Shown here: in pieces, positions 6,131 to 54,359 of the stretch
How positions within the stretch are numbered: the first letter of the stretch is position 1
Layout: the number at the start of each line of letters is the position of its first letter
IMG/VR virus record: IMGVR_UViG_3300035696_000002
From: a virus
Taxonomy: Duplodnaviria; Heunggongvirae; Uroviricota; Caudoviricetes
DNA: 64,000 nt
Reading direction: 5' to 3' (one strand)
Translations under genes and position numbers: made by a program
The notes under the pieces: model-generated
Seen by the model: only the letters and a program-made list of their open reading frames with translations
Databases searched by the model: none
Told to the model about the DNA's origin: nothing

Positions 6131-9100
6131 TTACTGACCCGGAATCAATTGTGTTGGAATCGGGTTAGTGGCCGCTAGGCGAATAGCGGTATCGCTATAG
6201 ACCCTCCACTTGAAGGAACCCGTAACGTTTACACCCGAATCCGTTACCGAAAGGGATAGGGTGTTGTCTCCAATGACTCCTGAGGAGAAACTACCGTTCA
6301 ATTCAATCAAACATGTGCCAGTACCCGTATCCAAACCACCGGACGGGATTGACGCCGTAATGCCTGACGTTCCAACCGAAAGGGTGATCTGGCTCGGGTT
6401 GGTGGAAACAACCCCCGTGGCGACGACGAAGAATGAGTCGTTTGGACGCGGCGTGATCGAACTCACGCTGCCCTGTGCCACGAAGCCGATGTATCCATAG
6501 TTCGTGCTGTCCACGTAATCCGGCCCGGCCTGAAGCGTAAGCCCGGCGATGACCTGCAAGTTCAAGCTCTTGTCCACGTGAGCACCGATGTTGTCAGTGA
6601 CACGGAAGATGATCGGCTTATTGAAGCCAGTCAGACTCGTAGTACCTGTGATCGCACCCGTCGATGGATTCAATGCAAGGCCCGTGGGCAGGTTGTTTGC
6701 CGAGGACGGGGAGATCGACCATGTGTACGGAGTCGTACCACCAGTTGCAGCCAGCGTAAGCGAGTACGGACGGCCCGAGGTTGCGTTCGGCAATGTAGCC
6801 GTCGTAATAGTCAACGACGAGGACTGAATCTGGAATTGCAAAGTTGCTGATGCAGTATCCGCAGGTGACAGAGCATCCGCGACGTGCACGGTAAGCTGTC
6901 CGGTGTACGCGGCTGGCGGGTTCGCGGCCAGCAACAGACCTGAACTGGAGATTGAAATTGTGGCCAAATCTCCTGCGGGCAGTGCCGGATTGAAATCGCC
7001 TGCGACGACGTTCGACCACACGAACGGCTGCACCAGTGCAGGCTGACCGTTGCTGGTTGCCGTAAGCTGTGTCGAAGTTGAAGCCCCGATAATCGCGGGC
7101 GGTAGCGTCGTTGTCGTCACCTTCAGACTGCTCGTGGTTGTCAACAGCAGAATAGCCTGAGCAGAGTTTCCGTTCTTGTCCACCGCAATGACCTTCACCG
7201 CGAGAGGATTGCTTGGCGGAATCTGTCCGGTGTATACGCCAGAGATGGTTGCAGTCTGACCATTGTTTGTTGCAGTCGCCTGAAGCACCAAGCCTGCCGG
7301 AAGCGGGTTTGGTGAGTCTGACGTAACCTGCCACGACACTGGCGTAGTGTACGGGCCAGACAACGACAAGGTACCAAGATACGAAGCACCACGATCAATC
7401 GGGCCGACGCCACTGGTGACGATGAGCATGCCTGTAGCAGACCCGGTCTGTAGGGTGTACGTCTGTGTTGCAGTGTGTACCCCGGAATCGTGCACAGTGA
7501 CTTGCAATGGCGTGGTGAATCCAGTCACGCTGGTCACACCTGAGAACACGCCCGTCGAACCGTCGAAAGCGATGCCCGACAACCCAGCAATCGGGAAAGT
7601 CGGCACGGTCGTCCACGTATAGGGCGGTGTTCCACCAATCGCCGTCATGGCGAACGTGTAGCTCTGCCCCGGAACAATCGTCGGGATAGCCTGTGTCGTA
7701 ATCGTCAACGTATCATTGACGGCAACAGTCAGAACGGCCTGCGTCGAAGCTCCACGAACATCCGTGAGGATGAATGTGTCGTTTTCCGTGGTCGTATCCG
7801 GTGCAGTCGTTGTGCCGGAGATCAGGCCACTGGAACTCAGAGTCAGTCCGGGGAACGTTGGGTTCAGACCGCCCGGCCACTGTGGCGAAGACCAAGTGTA
7901 CGGCTGAATGCCGCCTGTGCCTTGTAGCAAGAACGAGTAGGGAACCCCCGTGATGAGTGTAGGAATCTGCGTGGTTACGATGCTCAACGGGCTCACGTAG
8001 TCCACAAAGAGACGGTGATACAAGTACGAATGGTGCCCGTTTGTGTCGGGAACGTTGAACCACAGATCGAAGTACCCAGCCTCAGTCGGGGTGCCAACGA
8101 TGTCGATACCCAGACCCGAGATGTCCACCTGAAGTGTCAAGCCCTGTGGCAGGCTGCCGTACAGGAGCGTGGGCGGAGCCAGCGGCACTGTGGCCGAGGA
8201 CACCAAGGCATTCGTTCCGTTGATCGGGGCACCAATCTGCGGAGCAGGCGTGATGTTGTTGATGTTGTCGATCAACAGGTAGTCGTTGCTGACTGTCGTC
8301 CAGTTGATTGTGACTGTGCCGTGAACCGTGCCAGTTGAATCAATATACTGAATGGTGCTCTGGGGAACTCCGGTGCCGACAAGCGTGCCGTAGATCAAGC
8401 CAGTGTTGGAGTCCAGTGAGAGACCGGGCGGCAAGGACGAGCCCGGAGCCACGATGACACTGTAGGCCGTGTTCTTCGCAATGTTTGGCGAGTTGAAATA
8501 TGGCTTCTGGGGATTCAACCCAACGAAATCGCCGACCACATACGGACGAGTGTAGGTGTTGACGATTCCAAGATCGCCGGGGACTGCCTGATCGTCGTGG
8601 CACACGAAGGTGTACTCGCGGGAGACCTGTCCCACGTTGACGCTGCCCTGCTGGAGAACGAGCGGGATGCGGAACTGTGAGTTGCGGAACGTCGAACTCA
8701 GGGCTGGCGGATTCCCCGGAGGCCCAGCAACTTCGACGATTTGGTTGACGTTATCGACCGAAACCGTTAGACCGTTCGGTAGCACAACAGGCTGCTGCGG
8801 TGCCAGAGTCAAACCGTTGAAATTTCCAACGACTGGGAAAATGATCGAAGTCGTATCGTTGTAGTCCCAGTAGTGATCGAAGAAAGCCTCTTCGATTCGG
8901 ATGCTGCTTACGGTCGGCTGCACCTGATAACTGAACTGCTGGTTCACCGTTGTACTGTTTGAGTCGCTGGCAGTCAGAGTGAACGTGTGAGTCCCGGTCT
9001 GAAGATCGTTCGGGTCTACCATGACCTCGACCTGACCATCCACCAGCTTCACAGCCTGTGTGGCAGGAACCTGAATCACGAGAACCTTGGATACCGAATT

Positions 9101-49452: not shown

Positions 49453-49481
49453 ATAAAACGAAATCAGAGACTTCCGGGGAC
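49428..49481 (+). promoter_or_regulatory. Antiterminator hairpin
   Basis: GTCCTCGGAG(49428-37)/TTCCGGGGAC(49472-81) plus TGATTTCG(49440-47)/CGAAATCA(49459-66); shares 49476-81 with the terminator. Confidence 0.7.
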
Positions 49482-49508
49482 GCCGAAAACGGCGTCCTTT
49501 TTGTTTTT
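49476..49508 (+). terminator. Intrinsic terminator directly before the first tRNA
   Basis: GGACGCCG-AAAA-CGGCGTCC followed by TTTTTGTTTTT. Confidence 0.9.
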
Positions 49509-49590: not shown

Positions 49591-49665
49591 GCGGGCTTAG
49601 CTCAGTGGTAGAGCGGTACCTTGCCAAGGTACAGGTCGCGGGTTCGAGCCCCGCAGCCCGCTCCA
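49591..49665 (+). tRNA. tRNA-Gly(GCC)
   Basis: Cloverleaf, TT-GCC-AA, TCCA end. Confidence 0.95.
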
Positions 49666-49681
49666 TTTTGAAGGGTTGACC

Positions 49682-50395
49682 ATGGAACAACTGTACGGTG
49701 TCAACGGGTTGATTTTCTGGACGGAGCGAGAGATCGCGACCCGCAAGCTGGTTGAAAGTCATTTGGTTCAGGCGTTGAAAGACAGCCTGAAAAAGATGAA
49801 CCGGGCGTGGGAGTTCTTCCAAGTGGAGGCCCCAATTTTGACGCCGAGCGAGTTTGTGAACAAGAACTACTCGAAGGATGACATGTATGCCGTCGAGCAG
49901 AAGTTTGGCGACACGTTACAGGAAGCGAACAACCCGGCAGTGCAGTTGATTGCCCGGCCAGAAACAACGATGGGCTCGTATGAGTTCGCAAGATACTTGC
50001 TGAACCCGCACAACGAGCAGAAAGTGCGAATGCCCCTCGTGGTTTGGCAACATGGCAAAAGTTTTCGCCGGGAGCAGGATCAGCCGACGAAGTTCATGCG
50101 GTTGAAAGAGTTTTACCAGTTGGAGTTTCAATGCATTTATTCTCCAACGACCGGGATGGATTACGCGGCACATGTGATCCCGGATATGGCGGCAGCGATG
50201 CAGCAGTTGGTCGGCGAATGTAAGATCGTGGCCAGTGATCGTTTGCCGGATTACTCAGAATGCACGATGGATATTGAGCACAACAGTGGTATGGAACTTT
50301 GCTCGATCTCGTTGCGAAAAGATTTTGAAGGTGCGAAGGTTCTGGAGATTGCAGTCGGAACTGATCGCGTGGTGACAAAGTTTTTGGGGCTATAG
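49682..50395 (+). CDS. Class II aminoacyl-tRNA synthetase catalytic core, GlyRS (alpha2-type)-like, no anticodon-binding domain
   Basis: 237 aa; APILTP, RPETT, motif 2 QHGKSFRRE...MRLKEFYQLEFQ, ELCSISLRKDF, motif 3 LEIAVGTDR then stop. Confidence 0.8.
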   Translation: MEQLYGVNGLIFWTEREIATRKLVESHLVQALKDSLKKMNRAWEFFQVEAPILTPSEFVNKNYSKDDMYAVEQKFGDTLQEANNPAVQLIARPETTMGSYEFARYLLNPHNEQKVRMPLVVWQHGKSFRREQDQPTKFMRLKEFYQLEFQCIYSPTTGMDYAAHVIPDMAAAMQQLVGECKIVASDRLPDYSECTMDIEHNSGMELCSISLRKDFEGAKVLEIAVGTDRVVTKFLGL

Positions 50396-50462
50396 CTCAG
50401 TCTGGGAGAGCGGGTGCTTTGCAAGCATCAGGTCGTCGGTTCGAGCCCGACTAGCTCCACCA
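50386..50462 (+). tRNA. tRNA-Ala(UGC)
   Basis: G3-U70, TT-TGC-AA, ACCA; overlaps last 10 nt of aaRS-like ORF. Confidence 0.95.
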
Positions 50463-50975: not shown

Positions 50976-51292
50976 GTGCCGAACCGGATGATCGCCGCCT
51001 GTTTCAGCAGGGGGAGGAAAGTCCGGGCTCCATAGAACAGCGTACCGGATAACGTCCGGGCATTCGTGAAGCGAAAGCGGATCGGGTGACGATTAGAGCT
51101 ACAGAGACGAGTCGGCGAAAGCCGGGTGAAACGAGCAATCTCTACGCGGAGCAATCTCAAATAGGCCGTGAGCCTCTGTTCGGGGCGTTATCAAACGGCG
51201 GGTTGAGAGCTTGAGCCAATCGGCAACGGTTGGCCTAGACGAATGATCGTCGCGTCGCAAGACGTACAGAACCCGGCTTATAGGTTCGGCAC
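50976..51292 (+). ncRNA. rnpB: RNase P RNA, compact bacterial type A-like
   Basis: P1 GTGCCGAACC/GGTTCGGCAC, GAGGAAAGTCCGGGCTCC, ACAGA, GGTGAAAC, GGAGCAA, ACAGAACCCGGCTTAT. Confidence 0.95.
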
Positions 51293-51302
51293 AAATTTTA
51301 AC

Positions 51303-51378
51303 GCGGACATCGCCTAGCGGCTATGGCCTCTGCCTTCCAAGCAGTTGATCGCGGGTTCGAGTCCCGCTGTCCGCTCCA
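51303..51378 (+). tRNA. tRNA-Gly(UCC)
   Basis: CT-TCC-AA, TCCA. Confidence 0.92.
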
Positions 51379-52181: not shown

Positions 52182-52257
52182 GCGGGAATAACTCAGTTGG
52201 TAGAGTGCTTGCTTCCCAAGCAAGATGTCGCGGGTTCGAGTCCCGTTTCCCGCTCCA
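52182..52257 (+). tRNA. tRNA-Gly(CCC)
   Basis: TT-CCC-AA, TCCA. Confidence 0.95.
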
Positions 52258-53621: not shown

Positions 53622-54359
53622 ATGCGTCTCCAGCTAATCAGCGACCTTCATACCGAGTTCTACGAGAACGTGCTCGAAATGTGTTTGAGCATCGAGATCG
53701 TGCCTGATCTTGATTTTCTCGTCATCGCCGGAGACCTCGTATCCGGGATGCAGTCCCTTGAGGAAGTGCGAGCCGCTTTCTCATTCTTCGCCAAGAAAGC
53801 CAAGCACGTGCTCTACGTGTACGGCAACCACGAATATTACAACAGCAGTGGCCCGGCTACGGAATTCAGAATCAAGTCCGTGGTGCCCGCGAACGTGCAC
53901 ATCTTGGACAACAACGAGATAACGCTTGAAGGAATTCATTTCTACGGCGGGGCGATGTGGTTCACCCGCGTCATCAACCCACTGGATGATCTCAACAAAT
54001 TTGGCATGTCCGACTTCACTCTGATTCAGGGCCTTGAGTCGTGGGTGTACAAGACCAACGCCCAGTTCACTGATCGGGGCCGGAGTCTTGTCAAGCCGGA
54101 AACAATCGTTATCACGCACCACCTGCCGCACCCGCAGAGCATCAATCCACGCTTCCGTGGCAGCAGCCTCAACCCGTGGTTCCTGTGCGACCAGACACGA
54201 ATGATCGCGATCAACAAGCCACGATTCTGGTTGCACGGGCACACGCACGACGCCTGCGATTACTTCGTCTACAACACGCATGTGATCTGCAACCCCTACG
54301 CCTACCCGCGTGAGCGAATGATGAAGGGAGTGTACAAACCTGTGGTGATCGAAGTATGA
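53622..54359 (+). CDS. Calcineurin-like metallophosphoesterase
   Basis: SDLH, AGD, GNHE, THH, HGHTH motifs. Confidence 0.92.
   Translation: MRLQLISDLHTEFYENVLEMCLSIEIVPDLDFLVIAGDLVSGMQSLEEVRAAFSFFAKKAKHVLYVYGNHEYYNSSGPATEFRIKSVVPANVHILDNNEITLEGIHFYGGAMWFTRVINPLDDLNKFGMSDFTLIQGLESWVYKTNAQFTDRGRSLVKPETIVITHHLPHPQSINPRFRGSSLNPWFLCDQTRMIAINKPRFWLHGHTHDACDYFVYNTHVICNPYAYPRERMMKGVYKPVVIEV

What the first reader, a model, noticed from the sequence alone, without database searches (positions are those of the whole stretch)
49682..50395. Catalytic-core-only GlyRS-like enzyme embedded in the tRNA array
Seen: a 237-aa class II aaRS with motifs 1-3 and GlyRS-type RPET and R..EF.Q.E signatures, ending a few residues after motif 3, so no anticodon-binding domain. 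It starts 17 nt after tRNA-Gly(GCC). Inference: an anticodon-blind ligase that may charge by acceptor stem only, which would suit the anticodon-less RNAs nearby or damaged tRNAs; alternatively it makes Ap4A-type nucleotides or transfers Gly to a non-tRNA acceptor.
Basis: partly seen in the sequence, partly recalled or inferred. Interest (0 to 1): 0.72.

Follow-up and report, generated by a model that had tools for sequence, protein, structure and literature searches.

The report
Phage mini glycyl-tRNA-synthetase core
A 463-kb phage encodes, inside one of its tRNA gene arrays, an intact 237-residue enzyme that is only the catalytic heart of a glycine-charging tRNA synthetase; it belongs to a large unstudied phage family and may load glycine onto tRNA without reading the anticodon, which is not yet shown.

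Summary
Window 49682-50395 (+) encodes a 237-aa class II synthetase core that starts 17 nt after tRNA-Gly(GCC). It ends 8 residues after the motif 3 arginine, and its stop codon lies inside tRNA-Ala.

- **Family:** over 1,100 protein clusters, nearly all 215-250 aa, in jumbo and huge phages. These include cultured Caulobacter, Brevundimonas, Sinorhizobium and Xanthomonas phages.
- **Closest relative:** alpha2-type GlyRS, by both profile and fold. The ATP site and the three-glutamate glycine pocket are 94-100% conserved.
- **Structure:** a confident model (pLDDT 93.6), and a predicted dimer through the usual motif 1 interface.
- **No missing partner:** the complete genome has no HGTP anticodon domain, no GlyS and no tRNA_bind domain. 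No neighbouring gene is conserved across the family.
- **Parallel case:** a HisRS-like core of the same design sits directly before two tRNA-His genes.

Best reading (0.45): a stand-alone glycyl-adenylate-forming enzyme that charges tRNA-Gly through its acceptor end only. Glycine transfer to a non-tRNA acceptor remains open.

I found no glycine-type mini-RNA in this genome and no real link to suppressor tRNAs. The searched literature does not describe the family. This scan has met the family before on other DNA, with the same verdict.

The parts
49682..50395 (+). CDS for the 237-aa stand-alone GlyRS-like class II catalytic core (P0001); TAG stop at 50393-50395
49670..49675 (+). GAAGGG, a likely Shine-Dalgarno sequence 6 nt upstream of ATG 49682
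   Evidence: read directly from the sequence
49817..49846 (+). Motif 1 region (residues 46-55, including E49 and P51); centre of the predicted dimer interface
49952..49969 (+). GlyRS-type (L)RPETT block (residues 91-96). E94 is invariant and aligns with the RPE glutamate of solved GlyRS
50054..50131 (+). Motif 2 (residues 125-150): GKSFR.E ... R..EF.Q.E.Q, including R129 and E148
50237..50323 (+). GlyRS-specific block (residues 186-214): DRLP.YS..T.DI ... E..S.S.R.D. It aligns only with alpha2 GlyRS
50345..50368 (+). Motif 3 (residues 222-229): E.A.G.DR, with E222 invariant and R229 in 52 of 53 sequences
49591..49665 (+). tRNA-Gly(GCC) immediately upstream, with G1-C72, C2-G71, G3-C70, U73 and encoded CCA; candidate substrate
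51303..51378 (+). tRNA-Gly(UCC) in the same array; candidate substrate
52182..52257 (+). tRNA-Gly(CCC) in the same array; candidate substrate
50386..50462 (+). tRNA-Ala(UGC), whose first 10 bases overlap the last codons and the stop codon of the CDS
   Evidence: the same arrangement occurs in relative L011
49509..49584 (+). tRNA-Val(GAC), the first gene of the co-transcribed array
49476..49499 (+). Terminator-like hairpin with a T run, just upstream of the array. No sigma-70-like promoter lies between it and the CDS, so the CDS is probably transcribed together with the tRNAs

Best explanation
The gene encodes a stand-alone, probably homodimeric enzyme that is only the catalytic core of an alpha2-type (class IIa) glycyl-tRNA synthetase. 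All insertion domains and the C-terminal anticodon-binding domain are absent, and this is the native state of a large phage family, not a truncation. Shown here: the gene is real and conserved; its fold and signature motifs are those of GlyRS; the residues that bind ATP and the glycine amino group in GlyRS are kept; and the genome encodes no detectable anticodon-binding partner. Inferred: it binds glycine and ATP and forms glycyl-adenylate (about 0.85). It then transfers glycine to the 3' end of tRNA-Gly, either the phage's own three isoacceptors, the host's, or both, recognising only acceptor-end features (G1-C72, C2-G71, U73) through the retained motif 2 loop. That would add glycylation capacity independent of the host's unrelated alpha2beta2 GlyRS during infection. 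It is made from the same transcript as the tRNAs it would serve. The overall confidence of 0.45 refers to the tRNA-charging step.
For: 1. Real, selected gene. 1,119 clusters at E<=1e-3, all 130-415 aa by search design and in practice 224-250 aa, on contigs up to about 490 kb. An exhaustive HMMER pass over 1.84 billion representatives found 232 relatives, nearly all 215-250 aa. 80 IMG/VR loci lie on contigs up to 608 kb. Cultured jumbo phages of Caulobacter, Brevundimonas, Sinorhizobium and Xanthomonas carry it.
2. GlyRS origin. The family profile against PDB sequences gives alpha2 GlyRS E 1e-19 (8u2q, 8sld, 8t5n), N. equitans 1.5e-16 and T. thermophilus 1e-13. The next classes are PylRS 9e-6, ProRS 2e-5 and HisRS 6e-5.
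3. Fold. The AF2 model has pLDDT 93.6 and pTM 0.90. The Foldseek top hit is GlyRS 8t5n at E 5.8e-13. VIA-align gives 5z5e Z 21.8 (rmsd 3.8, 228 aligned) and 2pme Z 20.0 (rmsd 2.6, 216 aligned), both over model residues 1-237.
4. Active site kept across 53 sequences down to 24% identity. E94 53/53, E148 52/53, E222 53/53, R129 52/53, R229 52/53, Q123 53/53, R212 and D214 53/53. E94 and E148 align with the RPE and QxE glutamates of solved GlyRS. Their role as the glycine pocket, and the equivalence of E222 to the third pocket glutamate, come from my knowledge of T. thermophilus GlyRS (E188, E239, E359). The motif 2 loop keeps GlyRS length (alignment).
5. Dimer. Score 0.86 against a best control of 0.00. 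That mark was reached by 20 of 30 proteins solved as pairs of one chain and by 1 of 23 solved as single chains. The runs agree in at least 95% of contacts and the partner pLDDT is at least 86. The interface is residues 2-18, 46-55 and 126-143, the class II motif 1/2 interface. The pass may reflect memory of solved class II dimers.
6. tRNA context.
- Here the gene lies 17 nt after tRNA-Gly in the array that holds all three tRNA-Gly genes of the genome.
- tRNA-Gly is the flanking tRNA in 4 of 15 dereplicated lineages that have a tRNA within 500 nt.
- The Gly share of neighbouring tRNAs is 10.3%, against 3/68 in this genome (p about 2e-4).
- One sub-clade places the gene in a cassette of Rnl1 RNA ligase, R2K ATP-grasp, CysRS, tRNA, the GlyRS-like gene and a Pnkp-like protein, with Pth nearby in phage Phosso.
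7. Parallel case. A HisRS-like core (hisS E 2e-43) ends at the same point after motif 3 (hhalign 95% to the GlyRS-like profile). It sits between tRNA-Trp and two tRNA-His genes; the first tRNA-His, read directly, carries G-1:C73. Its family also has more than 4,000 uniformly short clusters.
8. Precedent. HisRS charges mini- and microhelices through G-1:C73, and glycine identity includes G1-C72, C2-G71 and U73 (PMC9976931). Far smaller GlyRS-B fragments show tRNA-Gly-dependent aminoacylation in vitro (PMC11602164).
9. Host contrast. The host of the Caulobacter phages has the unrelated alpha2beta2 enzyme: GlyS was detected in the Caulobacter vibrioides control genome.
Against: - No acceptor has been shown; every step after adenylate formation is inference.
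- Canonical GlyRS uses C35 and C36 as identity elements (PMC9976931). From memory, not checked here, T. thermophilus GlyRS without its C-terminal domain activates glycine but does not charge tRNA.
- The GlyRS insertion domains that help hold the acceptor stem are missing.
- 42 of 80 related loci have no tRNA within 6 kb. Direct tRNA-Gly adjacency is only weakly enriched: p about 0.035 against the genome share, and not significant against the local share.
- The family is acidic (median pI 5.7) and has no added RNA-binding appendage.
- Scores are far below the curated GlyRS equivalog cut-offs: 38 bits against 312.
Confidence: 0.45

Rival explanations
1. Glycine ligase for a non-tRNA acceptor. 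Like the amino acid:carrier-protein ligases, EpmA or AsnA, the core makes Gly-AMP and passes glycine to a protein, a carrier thiol, a small molecule or a nucleotide.
For: Every well-studied class II core-only paralogue (HisZ, AsnA, EpmA, aa:CP ligases; PMC9437257) works off tRNA. The aa:CP ligase 3mey is a strong structural match at Z 18.9. Half of the related loci have no tRNA nearby. In Caulobacter phage CcrBL9 the gene sits next to NAD-salvage genes and not tRNAs. An R2K ATP-grasp amidoligase recurs in the wider neighbourhood.
Against: No carrier protein or other acceptor gene is conserved beside it; the best neighbour family occurs in 13 of 84 loci. The motif 2 loop keeps GlyRS length. tRNA-Gly genes are enriched nearby. 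The parallel HisRS-like core directly abuts tRNA-His.
Confidence: 0.25
2. Anticodon-blind charger of unusual RNAs. It glycylates suppressor tRNA(CUA), anticodon-damaged tRNAs or anticodon-less mini-RNAs.
For: Ten related loci have a lone tRNA(CUA) next to the gene. This genome has three CUA tRNAs, and one of them (G000 238903-238977) has U73 and C2-G71. Some relatives place the gene among tRNA repair genes.
Against: The neighbouring CUA tRNAs mostly have G73 and Lys/Arg/Thr-like bodies, not glycine identity. At a flanking distance of 500 nt or less, only one dereplicated lineage at 70% identity carries the CUA link. TAG shows no genome-wide recoding signal here. No glycine-identity mini-RNA was found in this genome.
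Confidence: 0.07
3. Nucleotide-signal enzyme. It uses the adenylate site to make Ap4A-type dinucleotides or another adenylylated product that manipulates the host.
For: Class II synthetases, GlyRS included, can make Ap4A (my knowledge, not checked here). The ATP-binding arginines are conserved.
Against: The three glutamates of the glycine pocket are as strictly conserved as the ATP site. That would be unnecessary for glycine-independent Ap4A synthesis. No Nudix or Ap4A-related gene is conserved next to it.
Confidence: 0.08
4. Non-catalytic regulator or decoy. Like HisZ, it binds glycine, tRNA-Gly or a host factor without catalysis.
For: HisZ chains are strong fold matches, Z 19.0 and 18.3. The family scores below the GlyRS equivalog cut-offs.
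Against: The catalytic motif 2 and motif 3 arginines and the whole adenylate site are 94-100% conserved down to 24% identity. A pure binder would not need this. No conserved partner gene was found.
Confidence: 0.05

Closest known systems
Alpha2-type (class IIa) glycyl-tRNA synthetase, e.g. M. tuberculosis 8t5n/8u2p, N. equitans 5z5e, T. thermophilus 1ati, human 2pme
   Same: Same catalytic fold. Same signature blocks: RPET, FR.E, R.EF.Q.E, the Y...T.DI block, E...R.D, and motif 3 G.DR. Same predicted motif 1 dimer interface. Best match by both sequence profile and structure.
   Different: No C-terminal HGTP anticodon-binding domain and none of the insertion domains: 237 aa against 440-690. About 18-21% identity. 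Far below the curated family cut-offs. Whether tRNA is charged is unknown.
GlyQ, the alpha subunit of bacterial alpha2beta2 GlyRS
   Same: A small class II catalytic-core-only polypeptide for glycine activation.
   Different: GlyQ is a different lineage: PF02091 was not matched at E<=1. It depends on the tRNA-binding beta subunit GlyS, and no GlyS exists in this genome.
N-terminal-domain-less pyrrolysyl-tRNA synthetases (M. alvus type, about 275 aa; PDB 6jp2, 6ezd)
   Same: Natural, roughly core-sized class II synthetases that charge tRNA without reading the anticodon. Good fold matches with high coverage of the target, TM by target about 0.52.
   Different: A different amino-acid pocket and family. 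They keep a small C-terminal tail and a dedicated cognate tRNA.
Amino acid:[carrier protein] ligases (Bll0957, PDB 3mey)
   Same: Stand-alone class II cores, some of which activate glycine and transfer it to a non-tRNA acceptor (PMC9437257). Z 18.9.
   Different: They derive from methanogen-type SerRS, not GlyRS, and are encoded beside their carrier protein. No such neighbour is conserved here.
HisZ (regulatory subunit of ATP phosphoribosyltransferase) and the phage HisRS-like core in this same genome
   Same: Class IIa cores without an anticodon domain. The phage HisRS-like ORF ends at the same position after motif 3 and also abuts its cognate tRNA genes.
   Different: HisZ is non-catalytic and works with HisG. 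The GlyRS-like family keeps all its catalytic residues.
GlyCA 'urzymes' (Patra et al. 2024, PMC11602164)
   Same: Minimal glycine-activating class II fragments, reported to show tRNA-Gly-dependent aminoacylation. This shows that a core can work without an anticodon domain.
   Different: They derive from the GlyRS-B alpha subunit, are much smaller (81 aa and up), come from a database oddity, and are not a conserved natural gene family.

Membership tests
Class II aminoacyl-tRNA synthetase catalytic domain (Pfam PF00587 tRNA-synt_2b) | Antiparallel beta-sheet core carrying motifs 1, 2 and 3 | tested here: met
   Pfam E 1.9e-6, although 28.5 bits is just under the 29.3 cut-off for this sequence. 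Most homologues carry a precomputed PF00587 hit. Model pLDDT 93.6. The fold matches class II cores at Z 14-22 over residues 1-237.
Alpha2-type glycyl-tRNA synthetase (NCBIfam PRK04173 / TIGR00389) | GlyRS-specific sequence blocks and the acidic glycine pocket (three glutamates) | tested here: met
   The family profile gives E 1e-19 to solved GlyRS, with the RPET, FR.E, R.EF.Q.E, Y..T.DIE and E..R.DF blocks aligned. E94, E148 and E222 are conserved in 52-53 of 53 sequences. Placing E222 as the third pocket glutamate rests on motif position and my knowledge, not on a residue-level structural alignment.
Alpha2-type glycyl-tRNA synthetase (NCBIfam PRK04173 / TIGR00389) | C-terminal HGTP anticodon-binding domain (PF03129) | tested here: not met
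   No PF03129 hit in the protein or in any of the six frames of the complete genome. The model ends where the GlyRS catalytic domain ends. No longer family member has one.
Alpha2-type glycyl-tRNA synthetase (NCBIfam PRK04173 / TIGR00389) | Score above the curated equivalog cut-off | tested here: not met
   38.4 bits against a cut-off of 312 (PRK04173), and 26 against 243.3 (TIGR00389).
Alpha2-type glycyl-tRNA synthetase (NCBIfam PRK04173 / TIGR00389) | Homodimer through motif 1 | tested here: met
   Predicted only. Score 0.86 against a best control of 0.00. The mark was reached by 20 of 30 proteins solved as pairs of one chain and by 1 of 23 solved as single chains. Runs agree in at least 95% of contacts; pLDDT at least 86. 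The pass may reflect memory of solved class II dimers.
Alpha2-type glycyl-tRNA synthetase (NCBIfam PRK04173 / TIGR00389) | Glycine activation and glycylation of tRNA-Gly | not testable with these tools
   Needs ATP-PPi exchange and aminoacylation assays.
GlyQ/GlyS heterotetrameric GlyRS | GlyQ-type alpha subunit (PF02091) paired with the GlyS beta subunit (PF02092) | tested here: not met
   PF02091 is not among the Pfam hits at E<=1. PF02092 is absent from the genome, while the control genomes were detected.
Amino acid:[carrier protein] ligases | SerRS-derived core encoded next to its carrier protein | tested here: not met
   The sequence profile places the family with GlyRS, and SerRS scores only E 2e-4. 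No neighbour family is conserved in more than 13 of 84 loci, and none of the nine recurrent neighbours sent to Pfam is a carrier protein. The fold match to 3mey at Z 18.9 shows only the shared class II core.
HisZ | HisRS-like, catalytically inactive core that works with HisG | tested here: not met
   The catalytic arginines and the adenylate site are conserved. NCBIfam returns no hisZ hit for this protein at E<=1. A search for HisG in the genome was not run.

The most novel reading that the evidence does not exclude
Because it cannot read anticodons, the enzyme may glycylate any RNA that presents a suitable acceptor end. One candidate is the phage's own amber-suppressor tRNA with U73 and C2-G71 (G000 238903-238977). 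This would insert glycine at UAG, or would keep charging tRNAs whose anticodon loops have been altered. Together with the HisRS-like core it would form a phage-encoded, acceptor-stem-only charging system and the smallest natural aminoacyl-tRNA synthetases known.
Probability: 0.06. Interest if true: 0.9.

Novelty: new variant of a known kind. Interest (0 to 1): 0.6.

Why it matters
If these 220-250-residue proteins really charge tRNA-Gly, they would be the smallest natural aminoacyl-tRNA synthetases. They would also be a living example of acceptor-stem-only recognition (the "operational RNA code"), a question so far approached with engineered fragments.

They would show, too, that giant phages bring their own stripped-down charging enzymes, made from the same transcripts as their tRNAs. 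Those enzymes would be unrelated to the glycine enzyme of their proteobacterial hosts.

If glycine instead goes to a non-tRNA acceptor, this would be a new branch of synthetase-derived ligases, present in thousands of phages.

Either outcome is directly testable, because cultured Caulobacter, Brevundimonas, Sinorhizobium and Xanthomonas phages carry the gene. In those records it is annotated as hypothetical or misnamed, for example "serine-tRNA synthetase" in phage Phosso.

Tried and rejected
1. **Separate tRNA-binding partner.** PF03129 and PF02092 gave no match, and PF01588 gave only a 12-bit match at E 0.07. Neighbour clustering over 84 loci found no conserved partner.
2. **Fused or longer forms.** The 'longer' search gave one 421-aa protein. 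It and five members of 306-352 aa show no extra Pfam domain.
3. **UAG-to-glycine idea.** The CUA tRNAs next to the gene in 10 loci lack glycine identity and resemble Lys/Arg/Thr bodies. At 500 nt or less the link is confined to one lineage. TAG read-through gains no more open frame than TAA, and TAG ends 142 of 685 long ORFs.
4. **Glycine-identity mini-RNAs.** The strict scan found only full tRNAs. The relaxed scan gave scattered hits in coding DNA, with no T-arm except in fragments of known tRNAs.
5. **Motif 3 alone against PDB sequences.** Nothing meaningful.
6. **PHROGs.** No family for this protein.
Pfam E 0.06, no PDB hit, single-sequence AF2 pLDDT 34, hhalign probability 0.3% to the GlyRS-like profile. 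Not confirmed.
8. **Literature.** Eight full-text searches found no paper on this family.
9. **Basic surface as a sign of RNA binding.** The family is acidic, so this is uninformative.
10. **Truncation artefact or pseudogene.** Rejected, given the uniform length and conservation across more than 1,000 clusters.
Full report
**The gene and its setting.** The window is bases 254836-318835 of a 463,033-bp virus record that CheckV rates complete.

The reported ORF is real: ATG 49682 to TAG 50393-50395, 237 aa, with an alternative in-frame TTG at 49676. GAAGGG lies 6 nt upstream of the ATG. tRNA-Gly(GCC) occupies 49591-49665 with its CCA encoded, so the ATG is the 17th base after it. At the other end, tRNA-Ala(UGC) starts at 50386, so the last codons and the stop codon lie inside the tRNA.

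A terminator-like hairpin at 49476-49499 precedes tRNA-Val. No sigma-70-like promoter lies between that hairpin and the ORF. The gene is therefore probably transcribed as part of the tRNA array. That array also holds an RNase P RNA at 50976-51296 (208 bits).

**What the protein is.**
- **Single-sequence searches** give weak class II hits: Pfam tRNA-synt_2b E 1.9e-6, NCBIfam GlyRS PRK04173 6.8e-10, hisS 1.4e-9. All are far below the equivalog cut-offs.
- **The family is large and uniformly short.** There are 1,119 clusters at E<=1e-3, mostly 224-250 aa, with long contigs of 458-492 kb. An exhaustive HMMER pass over 1.84 billion representatives found only 232 relatives, nearly all 215-250 aa, and no full-length GlyRS among the best 150.
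- **A 53-sequence alignment (A1)**, reaching down to 24% identity, has invariant or near-invariant blocks: LRPETT, Q.GKSFR.E, R..EF.Q.E.Q, DRLP.YS..T.DI, E..S.S.R.D and E.A.G.DR.
- **The profile of A1** matches solved alpha2 GlyRS at E 1e-19 (Mycobacterium), 1.5e-16 (N. equitans) and 1e-13 (T. thermophilus). The next classes are PylRS at 9e-6, ProRS at 2e-5 and HisRS at 6e-5. The GlyRS-specific block after motif 2 is aligned.
- **The AlphaFold2 model** is confident: pLDDT 93.6, pTM 0.90.
- **Fold searches.** Foldseek ranks GlyRS first (8t5n, E 5.8e-13). The Foldseek-independent search gives GlyRS 5z5e Z 21.8 (rmsd 3.8, 228 aligned) and human GlyRS 2pme Z 20.0 (rmsd 2.6, 216 aligned). ProRS, HisZ, the aa:CP ligase 3mey, HisRS and ThrRS follow at about Z 19.
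- **Extent.** The alignments span model residues 1-237 against the catalytic domains only.

The protein is therefore a complete class IIa core of GlyRS descent, and nothing more.

**Active site.**
- E94 (53/53) and E148 (52/53) align with the RPE and QxE glutamates of GlyRS.
- E222 (53/53) sits in motif 3, where GlyRS has its third pocket glutamate.
- R129 (motif 2) and R229 (motif 3) are present in 52 of 53 sequences.
- That these glutamates form the glycine-ammonium pocket, and that the arginines bind ATP, is my knowledge of T. thermophilus GlyRS (E188, E239, E359). I did not find a citable source in the library.
- The motif 2 loop keeps GlyRS length.

Conservation of this kind argues for a working glycyl-adenylate-forming enzyme.

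**Dimer.** The homodimer prediction scored 0.86 against a best control of 0.00. That mark was reached by 20 of 30 proteins solved as pairs of one chain and by 1 of 23 solved as single chains. The runs agree in at least 95% of contacts, and the partner pLDDT is at least 86. The interface (residues 2-18, 46-55, 126-143) is the canonical class II one. The pass may simply reflect likeness to solved dimers.

- Six-frame HMM searches of the whole genome found no HGTP anticodon domain and no GlyS beta subunit. The tRNA_bind search gave only a 12-bit match at E 0.07. Controls worked in 14, 7 and 14 reference genomes respectively.
- The 'longer' search found one 421-aa relative. It and five members of 306-352 aa carry no additional Pfam domain.
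- Clustering the neighbours of 84 loci found no family present in more than 13 of them.

The protein works alone, or with something not encoded nearby.

**Context.**
- The genome has 68 tRNAs plus a tmRNA in five arrays. All three tRNA-Gly genes are in the array that holds this gene. All three have G1-C72, C2-G71, G3-C70 and U73, which are the bacterial glycine acceptor determinants (PMC9976931; PMC3990555).
- Of 80 IMG/VR loci, 38 have a tRNA within 6 kb and 30 have one within 1 kb. tRNA-Gly directly precedes the gene in L011, L052, L054 and L067.
- After dereplication at 70% identity, Gly is the flanking tRNA in 4 of 15 lineages that have a flanking tRNA. This gives p about 0.035 against this genome's 3/68 share, and is not significant against the local share. 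Gly makes up 10.3% of neighbouring tRNAs against 4.4% (p about 2e-4).
- The association is therefore real but modest. 42 of 80 loci have no tRNA nearby.
- In one sub-clade, which includes cultured Sinorhizobium phage Phosso, the gene sits in a cassette of T4-type RNA ligase 1, R2K ATP-grasp, full-length CysRS, tRNA(CUA), the GlyRS-like gene and a Pnkp-like protein, with Pth nearby.
- In Caulobacter phage CcrBL9 the gene lies beside NAD-salvage genes. In Xanthomonas phage XbC2 it follows tRNA-Ser.

**A parallel case in the same genome.**
- A 204-aa HisRS-like ORF (hisS E 2e-43, PF13393 7.8e-21) lies between tRNA-Trp and two tRNA-His genes. The first tRNA-His, read directly from the sequence, carries G-1:C73.
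- It is homologous end to end to the GlyRS-like profile (hhalign 95%) and stops at the same point after motif 3.
- Its family has more than 4,000 clusters of 144-226 aa, again on contigs up to 683 kb.
- HisRS is known to charge mini- and microhelices through G-1:C73 (PMC9976931).

Core-only class IIa enzymes placed beside cognate tRNAs are thus a recurring design in these phages. This is the strongest indirect argument for a tRNA-directed function.

**Ideas tested and dropped.**
- *Suppressor tRNAs.* Ten loci have a lone tRNA(CUA) next to the gene. Those tRNAs mostly have G73 and Lys/Arg/Thr-like bodies. At a flanking distance of 500 nt or less the link is confined to one lineage. This genome shows no TAG recoding signal.
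- *Glycine-type mini-RNAs.* The strict scan found only full tRNAs, and the relaxed scan added nothing credible.

**Comparison with what is known.**
- The closest family is alpha2 GlyRS, but two defining features fail: the anticodon-binding domain and the curated score. I therefore do not file the protein as a GlyRS.
- It resembles GlyQ in being a core only, but it belongs to a different lineage and has no GlyS.
- It resembles the N-terminal-domain-less PylRS enzymes in size and in ignoring the anticodon.
- It resembles aa:CP ligases, HisZ, AsnA and EpmA in being a domain-stripped paralogue, and every one of those works off tRNA (PMC9437257).
- Carter's GlyCA fragments show that glycine-activating cores can aminoacylate tRNA-Gly without an anticodon domain (PMC11602164).
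- Al-Shayeb et al. 2020 report up to 15 tRNA synthetases per huge-phage genome. They also report a phage CRISPR spacer aimed at a host GlyRS gene. They do not describe this family (PMC7162821).
- None of the full-text searches found a paper on it.
- GenBank records call it hypothetical, 'aminoacyl-tRNA synthetase', 'RNA synthetase class II' or, wrongly, 'serine-tRNA synthetase'.

**Earlier notes of this scan.** The scan has met the family on other DNA several times, and follow-up agents reached the same verdict. My tests were run independently on this window and agree.

**Verdict.**
- Most likely (about 0.85) this is an active glycyl-adenylate-forming enzyme.
- tRNA-Gly as its acceptor, recognised by the acceptor end alone, is the best-supported guess (0.45).
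- A non-tRNA acceptor is the main rival (0.25).
- Novelty: a new variant of a known kind, namely a domain-stripped synthetase paralogue.
- The gene is experimentally tractable in cultured phages.

Noticed in passing
G000:C1:87826-88440 (L006:1327-1941, +): A HisRS-like catalytic-core-only ORF (204 aa as called; hisS E 2e-43; no anticodon domain) lies between tRNA-Trp and two tRNA-His genes. The first tRNA-His, read directly, carries G-1:C73. The family has more than 4,000 short clusters, including some in Hahella and Massilia chromosomes that are annotated as HisZ.
   Followed up: partly
G000:C1:23262-24023 (L091:1763-2524, +): A 253-aa ORF with an FRNE ... KVE motif-2-like segment, flagged earlier as a third anticodon-less class II core next to a MazG/HisE-like gene. 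I could not confirm it: Pfam E 0.06, no PDB hit, AF2 pLDDT 34, hhalign probability 0.3% to the GlyRS-like profile.
   Followed up: yes
window 50384-50395 and L011:~6690-6702: The last codons and the TAG stop of the GlyRS-like gene lie inside tRNA-Ala(UGC). The same tRNA-Gly, ORF, overlapping tRNA-Ala order occurs in a relative at 74% identity. RNase P cleavage at the tRNA 5' end would leave the mRNA without a stop codon, and the phage encodes its own tmRNA (G000 242851-243196).
   Followed up: partly
window 50976-51296 (+): A bacterial class A RNase P RNA (208 bits, full-length model match) sits inside the tRNA array, between tRNA-Cys and tRNA-Gly(UCC).
   Followed up: partly
G000:C1:90563-91375 (L006:4064-4876, +): An R2K-clade ATP-grasp protein (270 aa) lies exactly between two tRNA-Lys(CUU) genes. 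R2K ATP-grasp genes recur near the GlyRS-like gene in relatives (L003, L053, Phosso).
   Followed up: partly
G000:C1:89445-89786 (L006:2946-3287, +): A 113-aa ORF that is only the C-terminal domain of initiation factor IF3 (PF00707, E 2.4e-19), inside a tRNA array. This is another domain-stripped translation factor.
   Followed up: no
G000:C1:238747-239349 (-): Three tRNA(CUA) amber suppressors with three different discriminator bases (G, U, A). Beside them is a tRNA(UUU) with U73, G1-C72 and C2-G71, which is unusual for lysine. The genome shows no general TAG recoding signal.
   Followed up: partly
L046, L049, L051, L053 and L092 (Sinorhizobium phage Phosso 167390-178127): A sub-clade cassette: T4-type RNA ligase 1, R2K ATP-grasp, full-length CysRS, lone tRNA(CUA), GlyRS-like core, Pnkp-like kinase/phosphatase, and Pth in Phosso. 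It looks like a tRNA repair and translation-rescue module. In Phosso the GlyRS-like gene is annotated 'serine-tRNA synthetase', which is probably a misnomer.
   Followed up: partly
window 53622-54359 (+): A metallo-phosphoesterase (phrog_1649, E 2.8e-41) lies just downstream of the tRNA array. The same family recurs near the GlyRS-like gene in 9 loci.
   Followed up: no
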